A stretch of 64,000 nucleotides of DNA from a candidate division Kazan bacterium RIFCSPHIGHO2_01_FULL_44_14 (GTDB lineage: Bacteria; Patescibacteriota; Kazan-3B-28). The stretch is taken from NCBI GenBank assembly GCA_001771185.1, contig METB01000001.1:567200-631199 (forward strand), written 5' to 3'. The notes under the pieces are model-generated. The model did no database searches, had not been told where the DNA came from, and saw nothing but the letters and a program-made list of their open reading frames with translations. The position numbers were made by a program, and so were the translations under genes. Of the stretch, positions 12,386 to 59,545 are shown piece by piece (position 1 is the stretch's first letter; each line of letters opens with the position of its first letter).

Positions 12386-12827
12386 ATCTAACCAATTTTC
12401 CCAATTTTCTGTCATCCCGAGCGAAGTCGACCAATCTCACCAATAGGGCAGAAGCAGAGAGGTTTTGGTTGTTTTCTGGATTCCGGCTCGTAGGCCGGAA
12501 TGACGAGGAAGCAGGATTGGGGGGAGGAATTATTGTTCTAGGACTGGCTATTGACCCGAATTCGGGAGTATTGTAAATTAAGCGCGTCTGCTGTCGCTTA
12601 ATGTTTAGTATTGATGAACACGTGCTCAAGGCGATGGCAGATGTTCTTTTTTACTTTTAACCAGGATTTGGGAGGCGCCATGAAAAAAGTTTTGAAGCTC
12701 CCGTTGGTGAGCGGTCCCTTCTTTGTCTGACGGAAGGTGAGTCGCTAAATGCAGTCAGTCATTGTTGGTTTCTCCTAATAGCATGACCATTGATTTTTAG
12801 TCATAACGCATCCTGGTTTTAATCCGC

Positions 12828-12862
12828 CCCGCTATCTTTTTGGTAGTGGGGCGTTTTTTTGT
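12828..12862 (+). terminator. intrinsic terminator
   Basis: ccgccccgcta...tagtggggcg hairpin followed by TTTTTTT. Confidence 0.5.
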
Positions 12863-12943
12863 TTATTTTTCCAAGGGTCTACGCCACCCTTGATGGGTGT
12901 TTTTGCCACCCCATTTGCTTGTCCAAATGGGGTGGCGCCCCAA

Positions 12944-13182
12944 AAGACACCCCACTCCCAAATTCAGTTTCCAATAACCTAAAATTACCCTTTCTAGTCT
13001 CCTTGCCCGCATTGCTACGCAAAGCGTTGCGGGCGGGTAACGCAAACTCTCCCGGTGAACCGGGATCAAACATGCTGGACCAAGCAGGTGATTTTACGAT
13101 TGGATCCGCCTGCTGGCGGACTGAATTTGCTCGATGGGTCCTAACAGAATTGATACCCCGAGGGACCGAGGGGATACCTTAA
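12944..13182 (+). repeat. ~240-bp structured dispersed repeat, copy 1 (upstream of holB)
   Basis: Near-identical to 14386-14628 and partially to 59376-59545; contains a conserved GCCCGC...GCGGGC stem and a variable-sequence hairpin with compensatory changes. Confidence 0.75.
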
Positions 13183-13302: not shown

Positions 13303-14202
13303 ATGGAGAAAATCGCGGATATTTTTGATGGGTTAACTGGCCAACCTCGGGCGAGGGAGGTTTTGGGTGTGGCTTACGCTAATGGGAAATTACCACAGAC
13401 CATGATTTTTGTGGGGCCCAAAGGAACTGGGAGGAAGACGGTGGCGATGATGTTGGCGAGAGCGTTACATGGGCAGGGACAAGGTAGTCCCTCCGTTCGT
13501 CGGGATAACAAAGAGTTGAGACATCCGGATACCTTTATTTTTTCGGAAGTATTGGCGGAATTGCGGGCCCAAGAACAAAGTAGTCCGATAAAGCGTACCA
13601 CCGATGCAGTAATGAAGTTTTTAAGCATGTCGCCGATTGCATCAAAGATTAAAGTGGCGATTATTGATGAAGCGGATAGTTTGAGTGAAGAATCCCAAAA
13701 CGCATTACTAAAGACACTAGAAGAACCGTTAGCGGATAGTGTATTGATATTAATCAGCGAAGATGAAAAACGATTGTTACCGACAATTGTGTCGCGGTCA
13801 GTGGTGGTGCGATTTGGACCATTAAACGATGCAGATATTAAAACGGTGCTTCCTGGAATATCTGATGAAATTTTAAAGATAGTTCAAGGAAGTTTGGGTT
13901 TGGCTAAAGAATTGTTGGTCGACTTGGAAAAGTTGGATGAAATGCAGAAGATGTGTCAGTTTTGGCTAACTTTAAATAAACAATCGACAGAAGACAAATT
14001 AAAATGGACAGAAATGATGCGGGAGCGTGAATCGGCGGTGAAGTTTTTGGAAACCGGGTTAAGGGTGATTCGGAGCGAATGGCTAACTCAACCGACCGAA
14101 GCCGGGGATAGGGTACTGCGACAAATTCGAACCGCGATTTTGCAGGTGAAAGATAATGTGAACCCCCGGGTGGCGATGGAAGCGATGTTACTTGCTCTGT
14201 AA
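13303..14202 (+). CDS. holB: DNA polymerase III delta-prime subunit
   Basis: 299 aa; AAA+ Walker A GPKGTGRKT; clamp-loader SRC-type motif IIDEADSLSEESQNALLKTLEEP; carries an in-frame repeat-derived insertion (see findings). Confidence 0.75.
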   Translation: MEKIADIFDGLTGQPRAREVLGVAYANGKLPQTMIFVGPKGTGRKTVAMMLARALHGQGQGSPSVRRDNKELRHPDTFIFSEVLAELRAQEQSSPIKRTTDAVMKFLSMSPIASKIKVAIIDEADSLSEESQNALLKTLEEPLADSVLILISEDEKRLLPTIVSRSVVVRFGPLNDADIKTVLPGISDEILKIVQGSLGLAKELLVDLEKLDEMQKMCQFWLTLNKQSTEDKLKWTEMMRERESAVKFLETGLRVIRSEWLTQPTEAGDRVLRQIRTAILQVKDNVNPRVAMEAMLLAL

Positions 14203-14385
14203 TTTTCCCCAAGCGCTGGCTGGCGCTTGACCCAGTATTACCTTCCTCTTGTATTCTTGTCATCCTGAACTTGGTTCAGGATCTATTTTGTTTATGTTTT
14301 CGAGCGTAGAATGACGCTCGATCCATTGGCACTTTTTGCTTGCCTGCCTGCCGGTAGGTAGGTCCAAAAAGTGCCACAAAAAGAC

Positions 14386-14628
14386 ACCCCACTCACAAAT
14401 TCAGTTTCCAATAACTTAAAATCACCCTTTCTGGTCTCCTTGCCAGCATTGCTACGCAAAGCGTTGCGGGCGGGTAACGCAAACTTTCCCGCCGTTTTCA
14501 AAGAAAACGGTTCCCATTTTGCAAAGCAAAAATGGCGGGGTCAAACATGCTGGACCAAGCAGGTGATTTTACGATTGGATCCGCCTACTGGCGGACTGAA
14601 TTTGCTCGATGGGTCCTACTGAATCACT
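14386..14628 (+). repeat. ~240-bp structured dispersed repeat, copy 2 (downstream of holB, direct orientation)
   Basis: Approximately 85-90% identical to copy 1 with an indel in the variable hairpin. Confidence 0.75.
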
Positions 14629-15304: not shown

Positions 15305-15378
15305 TGTCAGGTGTTTAGTGTTAAGTGTCAGGATTTTTATTGCCAGATACTTGATACCGGATACATGATACTGAATAG

Positions 15379-15650
15379 GCCGACGTAGCTCAGCTGGTAG
15401 AGCAACCCCATGGTAAACAACAAATTGCCCGCTGTTAGAGAAATCTTATAGCGTATCTCGAATAACGGTTAAAGGTCCAAATATCGGGTTCAGACCGTGG
15501 CGAATAATCGCCCGAACGACTGACAAGAGGGACTAAGTCCTGCAAAGGATATGTCTGATATACAGTCTAATCTCCGTATAGATATGGGTAGTAAAAACGG
15601 AGTATCAATGAAGGGGTAGGTCGGCGGTTCAAATCCGCCCGTCGGCTCCA
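15379..15650 (+). tRNA. tRNA-Thr(GGU) interrupted by a ~196-nt insertion in the anticodon loop (candidate group I intron at ~15415-15610)
   Basis: Exon 1: GCCGACG-UA-GCUCAGCUGGUAGAGC-A-ACCCC-AUGGU. Exon 2: AA-GGGGU-AGGUC-GGCGGUUCAAAUCCGCC-CGUCGGC-U-CCA. The spliced cloverleaf is canonical with anticodon GGU. The insertion follows a U and ends in G (group I compatible) and contains a GGGACUAAGUCC P7-like segment. Confidence 0.65.
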
Positions 15651-15685: not shown

Positions 15686-15772
15686 GCCGAGGTACCGAAG
15701 CGGTCAAACGGGACTGACTGTAAATCAGTTGGCTTTACGCCTTCCTAGGTTCGAATCCTAGCCTCGGCACCA
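15686..15772 (+). tRNA. tRNA-Tyr(GUA)
   Basis: Acceptor GCCGAGG/CCUCGGC; anticodon arm ACUGA-CUGUAAA-UCAGU; long variable arm; T-arm CUAGG-UUCGAAU-CCUAG; encoded CCA. Confidence 0.8.
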
Positions 15773-15947
15773 GAAGCCACCATCCAACTTGCTTGGATTG
15801 TAGCTTCTGTGACAGGTTGTGGAGTTGAAATATGTTCTGCATAAGGTTCGCTCGCGATGCTGCTTATATAAATTTGTTGTCTTCCTTGTTGCAGCGAGTG
15901 CAGGGCCCCCGCAGCCAGCGGGGAAATCATCCTAGCCTCGGTTTTAT

Positions 15948-59231: not shown

Positions 59232-59375
59232 CGGCACTCGACCCGTTCCCGCCTTGTCTTGTGTTTTTGTCATTCTGAACGAAGTGAAAAATCTAGTCCC
59301 GGTAGGCCGGGACGTTTCTTCTGCCACCATTTTGCTCACCCAAAACGGTGGCGCCAAAAGGGTGCCCCCACTCAC

Positions 59376-59545
59376 CAATTGCTAGCCAAAATAGAAAATC
59401 ACCCTTTCTGGTCTCCTCGCCCGCATTGCTACGCAAAGCGTTGCGGGCGGGTAACGCAAACTCTTCTGCTGTACAGCAGGATCAAACATGCGGCTTCACC
59501 CACCGAGATTTAGTTCAGTTCAGGACAGTCCTCGTCCTAAGGCCA
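59376..59545 (+). repeat. structured dispersed repeat, partial copy 3 of the 12944/14386 family plus 3' module shared with 47385-47440
   Basis: Shares CACCCTTTCTGGTCTCCTCGCCCGCATTGCTACGCAAAGCGTTGCGGGCGGGTAACGCAAACT with copies 1-2, with a different but again self-complementary variable hairpin (TCCTGCTGTACAGCAGGA). Confidence 0.7.

What the first reader, a model, noticed from the sequence alone, without database searches (positions are those of the whole stretch)
15379..15650. tRNA-Thr(GGU) interrupted by a ~196-nt group-I-compatible insertion after anticodon position 36
The two halves assemble into a perfect cloverleaf (acceptor GCCGACG/CGUCGGC, anticodon stem ACCCC/GGGGU, loop AUGGUAA). The intervening ~196 nt (about 15415-15610) follows a U and ends with G, as required for group I splicing. 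It contains a GGGACUAAGUCC segment reminiscent of the P7 region.

Bacterial tRNA introns are rare and best known in tRNA-Leu(UAA), fMet, Arg(CCU) and Ile(CAU). A tRNA-Thr(GGU) host would be unusual. The gene order Thr-Tyr-Thr upstream of the L11 operon mirrors the thrU-tyrU-(glyT)-thrT arrangement in E. coli, which supports the tRNA identities.
Basis: seen in the sequence. Interest (0 to 1): 0.6.

Follow-up and report, generated by a model that had tools for sequence, protein, structure and literature searches.

The report
Small self-splicing intron in tRNA-Thr
A tRNA-Thr(GGU) gene of an uncultured Kazan-group (CPR) bacterium is split after the anticodon by a 196-base ORF-less group I intron; related copies sit at the same site in many groundwater bacteria, and standard tRNA and Rfam searches miss them.

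Summary
Bases 15379-15414 and 15611-15650 join into a perfect 76-nt tRNA-Thr(GGU). They are separated by exactly 196 nt (15415-15610) that follow U36 and end in G.

The closest genome in the genome collection (Kazan bacterium CP011216) has the same tRNA uninterrupted, differing by 1 nt. One metagenome scan found 18 homologous inserts of 189-212 nt. All lie at the same site of tRNA-Thr(GGU), and all end in G.

On 17-18 distinct sequences, a complete group I fold is supported: P1 with a U.G pair, P2, P3, P4, P5, P6, P7, P8, P9.0 and P9, including the P3/P7 pseudoknot.
- 93-94% of cells are paired, against 26-47% in register-shifted controls.
- 27-28 pairs show changes on both sides.
- RNAalifold recovers the nested helices independently.

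An invariant L2 GAAA loop faces an 11-nt-receptor-like motif in P8, as in the Azoarcus intron. L9 is not a tetraloop and appears instead to pair with L5.

Rfam RF00028 does not match at any threshold tried. I found no paper describing this host tRNA.

Verdict: a real, most likely self-splicing group I intron, and a new member of a known kind. Splicing itself is inferred, not shown. Interest is moderate.

The parts
15340..15369 (+). Promoter-like site (TTGCCA, 18-nt spacer, CATGAT) just upstream of the tRNA cluster
   Evidence: Consensus scan, 9 of 12 matches. This is weak evidence and only suggestive.
15379..15414 (+). 5' exon of tRNA-Thr(GGU): acceptor 5' strand, D arm, anticodon stem 5' strand, and loop up to U36
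   Evidence: ARAGORN with introns allowed. Nearly identical to the intronless gene in L001.
15415..15610 (+). 196-nt ORF-less group I intron. Intron position n corresponds to window coordinate 15414+n.
   Evidence: Clean insertion relative to L001, L002 and L003. Eighteen homologues at the same site. Own covariance model R1 scores 210.6 bits over 15405-15618.
15412..15429 (+). P1: exon G34 G35 U36 plus intron A1 A2 paired with U11 U12 G13 C14 C15 (15425-15429). U36.G13 is the wobble pair at the 5' splice site, and GCC is the internal guide.
   Evidence: G-C, G-C and U.G are present in 17 of 17 sequences. The two intron-side pairs covary.
15430..15453 (+). P2 hairpin (16-25 paired with 30-39) capped by the invariant GAAA tetraloop L2 (15440-15443)
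   Evidence: Eight of 9 pairs change on both sides. GAAA is invariant in all 17 sequences although the search pattern did not require it. L088 shows G17-C38 changed to A-U.
15456..15459 (+). P3 5' strand (UCUC), which pairs with 15527-15530
   Evidence: 97% of cells paired. Both-sided changes occur at 2 of the 4 pairs: U-A to C-G, and C-G to U-A.
15465..15498 (+). P4 (15465-15470 with 15493-15498), J4/5 AAA (15471-15473), P5 (15474-15478 with 15486-15491, one bulged U), and L5 (15479-15485)
   Evidence: P4 is invariant in 18 of 18 sequences and was not forced by the pattern. P5 covaries; L088 shows C-G to A-U and G.U to A-U.
15499..15512 (+). P6 hairpin GGCGA/UCGCC
   Evidence: 93% of cells paired, with both-sided changes; length varies among homologues.
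15516..15522 (+). P7 5' strand: A102, bulged C103, then G104 A105 C106 U107 G108. G104-C153 is the presumed guanosine-binding pair.
   Evidence: Pairs with 15563-15568. RNAalifold predicts this helix. L106 changes A102-U154 to G-C and the bulge from C to A. GACU/AGUC was fixed by the search pattern, so its invariance among homologues carries no weight.
15527..15530 (+). P3 3' strand (GAGG). With P7 it forms the group I pseudoknot.
   Evidence: Covariation with 15456-15459.
15531..15555 (+). P8: base pairs 15531-15533 with 15553-15555; an internal loop ACUAAG/UAUGU matching the core of the 11-nt GAAA-tetraloop receptor; a distal stem; and L8 GCAA (15542-15545)
   Evidence: Read directly from the sequence. 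The stems covary. CUAAG/UAUG was fixed by the search pattern in the homologues.
15556..15562 (+). J8/7 (UGAUAUA)
   Evidence: The position and sequence resemble the group I consensus GAUAUAGUC (recalled from memory). GRYAUA was fixed by the search pattern.
15563..15568 (+). P7 3' strand (CAGUCU)
15570..15609 (+). P9.0 (15570-15571 with 15608-15609) enclosing P9 (15572-15577 with 15597-15602) and the 19-nt loop L9 (15578-15596). L9 contains GAUAU, which is complementary to AUAUC in L5.
   Evidence: P9.0 is 97% paired, with AU, UA, GC and CG pair types. P9 is 100% paired, with 4 of 6 pairs changed on both sides. L5-L9 duplex energy is -4.7 kcal/mol for cognate pairs against -2.5 for non-cognate pairs, permutation p about 1.5e-4.
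15610..15610 (+). Terminal guanosine (omega-G) at the 3' splice site
   Evidence: G in all 19 sequences.
15611..15650 (+). 3' exon of tRNA-Thr(GGU): A37 A38, anticodon stem 3' strand, variable loop, T arm, acceptor 3' strand, and encoded CCA
   Evidence: The anticodon stem covaries across homologues, with CG, UA and AU types.

Best explanation
Bases 15415-15610 are a compact, ORF-less group I intron that interrupts the anticodon loop of tRNA-Thr(GGU) between U36 and A37. It resembles the IC3 class, the Azoarcus type.

**Proposed mechanism (inferred).** The pre-tRNA is transcribed with the intron, and the intron folds into two domains, P4-P6 and P3-P9.
- The internal guide GCC (15427-15429) pairs with the anticodon bases G34 G35 U36. 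This makes P1, with a U36.G13 wobble at the cleavage site.
- A free guanosine or GTP binds at the G104-C153 pair of P7, next to the bulged C103, and attacks the bond after U36.
- The terminal G196, positioned by P9.0, then takes the place of the free guanosine.
- The 3'-OH of U36 attacks the bond after G196. This joins U36 to A37, restores the loop AUGGUAA and releases the intron.

**Proposed folding clamps.** The L2 GAAA tetraloop docks into the 11-nt-receptor-like motif of P8, as in Azoarcus. A base-paired contact between loops L5 and L9 takes the place of the usual L9 tetraloop-P5 contact.

**Shown here:**
- the exact boundaries;
- the empty site in sister genomes;
- conservation of the site in 18 homologues;
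- the secondary structure, with covariation;
- continued constraint on both tRNA halves.

**Inferred:**
- catalysis itself;
- independence from protein cofactors;
- the two tertiary contacts;
- mainly vertical inheritance with occasional loss.
For: 1. **Boundaries and tRNA.** ARAGORN calls Thr(ggt) i(37,196), and the spliced product is a canonical cloverleaf.
2. **Empty site.** L001 (Kazan bacterium, L11 93% identical), L002 and L003 carry an uninterrupted tRNA-Thr(GGU). The window exons differ from L001 by 1 nt.
3. **Family.** The metagenome scan gave 24 loci. Eighteen hold a homologous 189-212-nt insert, every one after U36 of a tRNA-Thr(GGU) and every one ending in G. The other 6 are chance hits in coding DNA.
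4. **Structure.**
   - On the MAFFT alignment A3, 92.5% of cells are paired against 26-47% when partners are slid. Twenty-seven of 54 pairs change on both sides, and 0 of 500 shuffles reach any measure.
   - On the model-based alignment A4, with P7 and P9.0 added, the figures are 93.7% paired and 28 of 55 pairs.
   - RNAalifold, given none of my input, recovers the anticodon stem, P1, P2, P4, P5, P6, P7, P8 and P9.
   - A strain variant, L088, carries 11 substitutions. They include compensatory changes in P2 and P5.
5. **Elements not forced by the search pattern are invariant.** These are L2 GAAA, J3/4, P4, J4/5, J6/7 and G108-C149.
6. **The tRNA is still under constraint.** The anticodon stem covaries across exons. 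Intron and exon divergence are correlated, r = 0.61, Mantel p < 0.0002.
7. **L2-P8 and L9-P5 tetraloop-receptor contacts** are documented for Azoarcus (PMC2813881).
8. **Literature.** Group I introns in CPR tRNAs have been mentioned in passing (PMC8172020).
Against: - Rfam RF00028 (Intron_gpI) gives no hit. This holds at gathering score on the window and on 14 homologous loci. It also holds at E <= 10 on a 401-nt slice of the window and on five small loci.
- P3 has only 4 base pairs, and P10 is weak (1-4 bp).
- The single-sequence fold is only marginally better than shuffles, z = -1.97.
- P7, the P8 receptor and J8/7 were required by the search pattern. Their conservation among homologues is therefore not independent evidence.
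- No splicing data exist, neither RNA-seq nor in vitro.
- I could not obtain a real reference IC3 sequence. The comparison with the Azoarcus core rests on published descriptions and on memory.
Confidence: 0.88

Rival explanations
1. The insert derives from a group I intron but no longer splices, or splices only with help from a host protein. The interrupted gene would then be a pseudogene or poorly expressed, with ACY codons read by the neighbouring tRNA-Thr(UGU).
For: - There are no splicing data.
- RF00028 does not recognise the insert.
- P3 and P10 are short.
- A tRNA-Thr(UGU) lies 300 nt downstream.
- Sister genomes do without the intron.
Against: - Both exon halves stay intact, and their anticodon stems covary across at least 12 distinct sequences.
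- The catalytic core, splice-site U.G, terminal G and P9.0 are conserved with compensatory changes over introns only 63% identical.
- No second Thr(GGU) gene is present in the window.
Confidence: 0.07
2. The insert is a protein-spliced tRNA intron of the archaeal or eukaryal kind, cut by an endonuclease at a bulge-helix-bulge motif. Alternatively, it is processed by RNases into split tRNA halves.
For: The insert lies in the anticodon loop, one base from the canonical 37/38 site. CPR genomes are known for unusual RNA processing; this is general knowledge and was not tested here.
Against: - The site is 36/37, not 37/38.
- The intron starts (AAACAAC, GGCCUC, UCGUCG and others) and ends (AAAUG or AAAAG) show no complementarity that could form the 4-bp helix of a bulge-helix-bulge motif.
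- At 190-210 nt, with a conserved pseudoknotted core, the insert is far more than such introns need.
- The U at -1 and the terminal G are invariant, which fits group I chemistry.
Confidence: 0.02
3. The insert is a non-intron mobile element, such as a MITE or integration scar, that happened to land in the tRNA gene.
For: - The window holds several dispersed noncoding repeats.
- A 175-nt insert bounded by a direct repeat sits next to tRNA-Tyr.
- Presence of the insert is patchy among close relatives.
Against: - Covariance model R1 finds no second copy in the window or in any other fetched locus.
- There are no terminal inverted repeats and no target-site duplication beyond the ambiguous AA.
- The site is identical in every homologue, and the RNA structure is conserved.
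Confidence: 0.02

Closest known systems
Azoarcus sp. BH72 pre-tRNA-Ile(CAU) group I intron (subgroup IC3)
   Same: - Inserted in the anticodon loop directly after U36, so the anticodon itself is the 5' strand of P1.
- ORF-less and very small.
- Simple P2, P5, P6, P8 and P9 without large peripheral domains.
- An L2 GAAA tetraloop facing an 11-nt receptor in P8 (PMC2813881).
- P7 of the form bulge-G-A-C-U paired with A-G-U-C (recalled from memory).
   Different: - The host is tRNA-Thr(GGU) in CPR bacteria, not tRNA-Ile in Betaproteobacteria.
- L9 is a 16-26-nt A/U-rich loop instead of a GAAA tetraloop. It seems to pair with L5 rather than dock on a P5 receptor.
- P3 is only 4 bp.
- Some members are 189 nt; Azoarcus is about 205 nt (recalled from memory).
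- Not recognised by RF00028.
Cyanobacterial and plastid tRNA-Leu(UAA) and cyanobacterial tRNA-fMet group I introns
   Same: [quoted passage not shown]
- The tRNA-Leu intron is old and mostly vertically inherited with losses. This resembles the intron-exon co-divergence seen here.
   Different: - The Leu intron sits inside the anticodon at 34/35 (recalled from memory).
- Hosts and lineages differ.
- Those introns are described as detectable by RNA-family search (PMC8450103). The introns here are not.
Alphaproteobacterial tRNA-Arg(CCU) intron, and tRNA-Ile2 introns of Acidovorax and Burkholderia
   Same: - Insertion after U36 of a tRNA that reads A-starting codons.
- Sporadic distribution among close relatives (PMC4033280; PMC8450103).
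   Different: A different tRNA and a different phylum. Sequence relatedness could not be tested with the tools available.
Group I introns in CPR 16S and 23S rRNA genes
   Same: The same bacterial radiation, which is known to be rich in intervening sequences. Many of those sequences also escape the Rfam intron models (PMC11270868).
   Different: Those lie in rRNA, are usually longer, and often encode LAGLIDADG endonucleases. This one lies in a tRNA and has no ORF.

Membership tests
Group I intron | The 5' splice site follows a U that forms a U.G wobble pair with the internal guide sequence in P1 | tested here: met
   U36.G13, flanked by G35-C14 and G34-C15, in 17 of 17 sequences. U36 is also fixed by the anticodon.
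Group I intron | The intron ends with a guanosine (omega-G) | tested here: met
   G15610 in the window. G in all 19 sequences examined.
Group I intron | Core helices occur in the order P3-P4-P5-P6-P7-P3'-P8-P7', with a P3/P7 pseudoknot | tested here: met
   - All helices are present.
- 93-94% of cells are paired against 26-47% in slid controls.
- 27-28 pairs change on both sides.
- P4 and P7 are invariant, so they are uninformative.
- P3 is 97% paired, with changes on both sides at 2 of its 4 pairs.
- RNAalifold agrees for the nested helices.
Group I intron | A guanosine-binding G-C pair in P7 next to a bulged nucleotide | tested here: met
   - In the window, A102-U154 is followed by bulged C103 and then G104-C153.
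- L106 shows G-C replacing A102-U154 and A replacing the bulged C.
- This is a match at the structural level only; binding was not tested.
- GACU/AGUC was imposed by the search pattern in the homologues.
Group I intron | P9.0 and P10 pairings that align the 3' splice site | tested here: inconclusive
   P9.0 (156-157 with 194-195) is 97% paired, with AU, UA, GC and CG types. P10 between A37 A38 and U12 U11 is only 1-4 bp and is not conserved (read).
Group I intron | Significant match to the curated covariance model Rfam RF00028 | tested here: not met
   No hit at gathering score or at E <= 10 on short slices.
Group I intron | Guanosine-initiated two-step transesterification (self-splicing) | not testable with these tools
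   Requires in vitro splicing or RNA sequencing.
IC3 subgroup (tRNA introns of the Azoarcus and Anabaena type) | Located in a tRNA anticodon loop, small, without P2.1 or extended P5abc or P9 domains | tested here: met
   Site 36/37. Length 189-212 nt. P2, P5, P6, P8 and P9 are all single hairpins.
IC3 subgroup (tRNA introns of the Azoarcus and Anabaena type) | An L2 GAAA tetraloop with an 11-nt receptor in P8 | tested here: met
   GAAA at 15440-15443 is invariant in 17 of 17 sequences and was not forced. ACUAAG/UAUGU is present in P8 of the window. The Azoarcus precedent is in PMC2813881.
IC3 subgroup (tRNA introns of the Azoarcus and Anabaena type) | An L9 GNRA tetraloop docking on a P5 receptor | tested here: not met
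   L9 is a 16-26-nt loop, or 6 nt in L106. P5 carries no receptor motif. A complementary L5-L9 segment is found instead.
IC3 subgroup (tRNA introns of the Azoarcus and Anabaena type) | Sequence homology to established IC3 members | not tested
   No reference IC3 sequence could be obtained. A literature search for the Azoarcus sequence found nothing, and blastn against phage records found nothing.
Archaeal/eukaryal protein-spliced tRNA intron | A bulge-helix-bulge motif at the exon-intron junctions, canonical site 37/38 | tested here: not met
   The site is 36/37. The intron termini share no complementarity that could form the central 4-bp helix (read).

The most novel reading that the evidence does not exclude
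This is a previously undescribed, CPR-wide family of minimal group I ribozymes, 189-212 nt and among the smallest natural ones. The family is dedicated to tRNA-Thr(GGU) and inherited largely vertically with sporadic loss. In it, the near-universal L9-tetraloop/P5 clamp has been replaced by an L5-L9 kissing-loop pairing.

Lacking any ORF, the intron may move with help in trans. Candidates are the free-standing LAGLIDADG and GIY-YIG endonuclease genes that crowd the spacers of the same tRNA cluster in related genomes, which would amount to 'collaborative homing'.
Probability: 0.35. Interest if true: 0.6.

Novelty: new member of a known kind. Interest (0 to 1): 0.45.

Why it matters
**Annotation.** Default tRNA finders and the Rfam intron model both miss this gene. 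Genomes that carry it will therefore appear to lack tRNA-Thr(GGU), which distorts tRNA inventories and completeness checks for CPR genomes. Covariance model R1, or the pattern used, would fix that.

**Biology.** The finding adds a new host tRNA and a new bacterial radiation to the short list of bacterial tRNA group I introns. It fits the pattern that site-36/37 introns sit in tRNAs with U36.

**RNA structure and engineering.** This is a natural set of very small, ORF-less group I ribozymes with an apparently different peripheral clamp. It offers comparative material next to Azoarcus and Anabaena.

The finding does not change how group I splicing is understood.

Tried and rejected
- **Rfam.** I searched at gathering score and at E <= 10 on the window and on homologous loci. 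RF00028 gave no hit; the only low-scoring matches came from the tRNA T-arm.
- **Alternative P7.** I rejected it because it leaves no room for P8 between P3' and P7'. It would also need a P3 that destroys P2 and the P8 hairpin, both of which covary.
- **Crude L5-L9 test.** The longest complementary stretch barely separates cognate from non-cognate loops (4.18 against 3.66). That test was not used as evidence. Duplex energies do separate them.
- **Other searches.**
  - The viral-contig scan with the core pattern gave 0 hits.
  - blastn of the intron against 50,697 phage records gave no match.
  - A full-text search for the Azoarcus sequence, intended as a reference, gave 0 hits.
- **Synteny query.** The L11-based genome scan mostly returned distant phyla, because L11 is too conserved. 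Only L001-L004 and a few other CPR loci were useful.
- **Bulge-helix-bulge and group II readings.** Both were rejected by inspection.
- **Boundary mis-calls.** ARAGORN's 'tRNA-Arg(gcg)' call for L105 and 'tRNA-Pro(ggg)' calls for L106 and L114 are boundary errors. The same loci read as Thr(GGU) with a U-1 and terminal-G intron.
- **Tyr/Thr spacer.** The 175-nt spacer has no homology to the endonuclease-bearing spacers of relatives.
- **Host taxonomy.** The hosts of the non-Kazan homologues could not be named with the tools left. They look CPR-like by gene content only.

Full report
**1. The observation**

- Bases 15379-15414 carry the acceptor 5' strand, D arm, anticodon stem 5' strand (ACCCC) and loop bases AUGGU of a tRNA.
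- Bases 15611-15650 carry AA, GGGGU, the variable loop, T arm, acceptor 3' strand, discriminator U and CCA.
- Between them lie exactly 196 nt (15415-15610), preceded by U15414 (tRNA position 36) and ending in G15610.

ARAGORN in default mode misses the gene, and so does the Rfam tRNA model. With introns allowed, ARAGORN reports tRNA-Thr(ggt) i(37,196). The joined halves fold into a canonical 76-nt cloverleaf.

**2. Origin and the empty site**

A search of one genome per species with the neighbouring L11 protein gave, as best match, candidate division Kazan bacterium GW2011_GWA1_50_15 (CP011216, L11 93% identical). Next came a Patescibacteria MAG at 79%. Both have the same Thr(GGU)-Tyr-Thr(UGU) cluster upstream of L11, and in both the tRNA-Thr(GGU) is uninterrupted.

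The window's exons differ from the Kazan gene by one D-loop base, so the 196 nt align as a clean gap. The window organism itself recurs in aquifer metagenomes with a 100% identical locus.

One contig, L088, carries 11 substitutions in the 5' half of the intron.

**3. A family of homologues**

I scanned the metagenome collection once with a degenerate core pattern, GACT..CTAAG..TATG..GRYATANAGTC. It returned 24 loci.
- Six are chance matches in coding DNA, roughly as expected.
- Eighteen are homologous inserts of 189-212 nt.

Every homologous insert lies in a tRNA-Thr(GGU) directly after U36, and every one ends in G. Three ARAGORN calls of 'Arg' or 'Pro' are boundary mis-calls of the same arrangement.

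Where the intron begins with G or U there is no AA ambiguity, which fixes the site at 36/37.

Two contexts occur:
- Thr(GGU)i-Tyr-Thr(UGU), in the window, L101 and L107. Their L11 proteins are closest to L002 (85-87% identical), the MAG next closest to the window after the Kazan genome.
- Thr(UGU)-Tyr-Thr(GGU)i-Trp, in the others, on contigs with CPR-like gene content.

Presence is therefore patchy even within the Kazan-like group.

**4. Structure**

Reading the window sequence against the group I plan gives the model below. Intron position n corresponds to window coordinate 15414+n.

| Element | Pairing or sequence (intron numbering) |
|---|---|
| P1 | Exon GGU + A1 A2 with U11 U12 G13 C14 C15 |
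| P2 | 16-25 with 30-39; L2 = GAAA |
| P3 | 42-45 with 113-116 |
| P4 | 51-56 with 79-84 |
| J4/5 | AAA |
| P5 | 60-64 with 72-77 |
| P6 | 85-89 with 94-98 |
| P7 | 102, 104-108 with 149-154; C103 bulged |
| P8 | 117-127 with 132-141; internal loop ACUAAG/UAUGU; L8 = GCAA |
| J8/7 | UGAUAUA |
| P9.0 | 156-157 with 194-195 |
| P9 | 158-163 with 183-188 |
| omega-G | 196 |

On a MAFFT alignment of 17 distinct sequences (A3), this structure has 92.5% of cells paired, against 26-47% when the 3' partners are slid by 1-3 columns. Twenty-seven of 54 pairs change on both sides, and none of 500 shuffles reaches any measure.

A covariance model built from A3 (R1) re-aligned 20 copies (A4). With P7 and P9.0 added, 93.7% of cells pair and 28 of 55 pairs change on both sides. 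P9.0 is 97% paired, with AU, UA, GC and CG types.

RNAalifold, given none of my input, recovers the anticodon stem, P1, P2, P4, P5, P6, P7, P8 and P9. It cannot predict pseudoknots, so P3 rests on the counts: 97% paired, with U-A to C-G and C-G to U-A exchanges.

The L088 variant alone supplies these changes:
- G17-C38 to A-U in P2;
- C64-G72 to A-U in P5;
- G.U to A-U in P5;
- U.G to C-G in P5.

**5. Caveat on ascertainment**

The search pattern required GACU/AGUC (P7), CUAAG/UAUG (the P8 receptor) and GRYAUA (J8/7). Their invariance among the homologues says nothing.

Several elements the pattern did not require are nevertheless invariant:
- L2 GAAA;
- J3/4;
- all six pairs of P4;
- J4/5;
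- J6/7;
- G108-C149.

In L106, the pair below the bulge changes from A-U to G-C and the bulge from C to A.

**6. Tertiary contacts (inferred)**

An invariant GAAA in L2, together with an 11-nt-receptor core in P8, matches the L2-P8 contact of the Azoarcus intron. That intron also has an L9 GAAA-P5 contact (PMC2813881).

Here L9 is a 16-26-nt A/U-rich loop and P5 carries no receptor. Instead, a 4-6-nt stretch of L9 is complementary to L5, and the pair differs between lineages:

| Lineage | L5 / L9 |
|---|---|
| window | AUAUC / GAUAU |
| L093 | GCAC / GUGC |
| L095 | ACACA / UGUGU |
| L105 | GGCAA / UUGCC |
| L099 | UAUG / CAUA |
| L091 | GCGC / GCGU |

L106 has both loops shortened.

A longest-stretch test did not discriminate. 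Duplex energies do: -4.7 kcal/mol for cognate pairs against -2.5 for non-cognate pairs over nine loop types, permutation p about 1.5e-4. I regard this contact as likely but unproven.

**7. Is the tRNA still used?**

The anticodon stems of the exons covary across homologues (ACCCC/GGGGU, UCUCC/GGAGA, CGUCC/GGACG, CAUCC/GGAUG). All spliced forms are cloverleaf Thr(GGU).

Intron identity (63-99%) tracks exon identity (70-100%), with r = 0.61 and Mantel p < 0.0002. This fits long co-residence with the host gene plus occasional loss, rather than frequent hopping.

No second Thr(GGU) gene and no second intron copy occurs in the window.

**8. What argues against**

- RF00028 does not match at all. 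I treat that as a failed membership criterion for 'recognisable by the curated model', not as evidence against the fold. A study of CPR rRNA insertions likewise classified only 35-45% with the Rfam intron models (PMC11270868).
- P3 is short and P10 is weak.
- The single-sequence fold has z = -1.97 only.
- No splicing data exist.

**9. Comparison with what is known**

Bacterial tRNA group I introns are documented in four host tRNAs (PMC4033280; PMC8450103):
- tRNA-Leu(UAA);
- tRNA-fMet;
- tRNA-Ile(CAU);
- tRNA-Arg(CCU).

That CPR tRNAs can carry group I introns has been remarked in one sentence, without detail (PMC8172020). Nine full-text searches found no description of a tRNA-Thr host or of this family.

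The closest analogue is the Azoarcus tRNA-Ile intron. It shares the site after U36, the small ORF-less form and the L2-P8 clamp. It differs in host, in lineage, in the L9 solution and in being detectable by the Rfam model.

**10. Verdict**

This is a real group I intron, most likely self-splicing, in a new host tRNA and a new lineage. It belongs to a conserved family that current annotation tools miss, and it is a new member of a known kind. Confidence in the group I assignment is about 0.88. Interest is moderate (0.45).

Noticed in passing
window 15773-15947: A 175-nt spacer lies between tRNA-Tyr and tRNA-Thr(UGU). It is bounded by a direct repeat of the tRNA-Tyr 3' end (CCTAGCCTCGG at 15757-15767 and 15931-15941). 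In L107 and L002 the two tRNAs are only 2-3 nt apart, so this looks like an insertion or a scar at the tRNA-Tyr 3' end. It has no ORF, no Rfam hit and no similarity to relatives' spacers; fold z = -1.5.
   Followed up: partly
L097 953-1877; L101 6508-7385 and 5918-6423; L001 5426-5760; L002 5318-5662; also L109, L099, L098, L095, L100 spacers: In related genomes, the spacers of the Thr-Tyr-Thr(-Trp) tRNA cluster carry free-standing endonuclease-like genes.
- LAGLIDADG_3: 270 aa and 265 aa, E = 7e-12 and 1e-13.
- GIY-YIG: about 87-106 aa, E = 2e-14 and 3e-9.
- ORFs of 194-210 aa with a helix-turn-helix and a 'LYWGEG' motif, with no Pfam nuclease hit.

They occur next to both intron-bearing and intronless tRNA-Thr(GGU) genes. 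None is present in the window's own cluster. They may be relevant to intron mobility.
   Followed up: partly
window 12857-13143 and 14286-14618 (partial third copy 59356-59468): A noncoding repeat of about 290 nt, 95-98% identical between two copies, flanks the DNA polymerase III delta' gene (13303-14202). The intergenic regions holding it are unusually long for a CPR genome. There is no Rfam match at E <= 1. Its nature is unknown: possibly a MITE-like element or a structured RNA.
   Followed up: partly
window 41191, 52775, 59614, 60000 (120 nt); 49329 and 49704 (138 nt); 47367 and 59482 (65 nt); 54617-54817 (34-nt tandem units): Several further dispersed and tandem repeat families occur in the second half of the window. 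They were not examined.
   Followed up: no
L088 1173-1659: This contig is a mosaic.
- The upstream gene and 5' exon are 100% identical to the window.
- The intron's 5' half has 11 substitutions, many of them compensatory.
- The intron's 3' half and the 3' exon are identical to the window.
- The sequence downstream, including a different tRNA-Tyr, is unrelated.

The cause is either recombination between intron variants or a chimeric assembly.
   Followed up: partly
L091 1877-1999; L092 5541-5660: LOOT RNA (RF03000) hits of 84-87 bits lie about 1.3-1.5 kb from the intron-bearing tRNA on two homologous contigs.
   Followed up: no
window 12815-12829: GGTTTTAATCCGCCC resembles the T-arm of the tRNA-Thr(GGU) (GGTTCAAATCCGCCC, 15626-15640). 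It sits just upstream of the first 290-nt repeat copy and may be a tRNA-fragment remnant.
   Followed up: no
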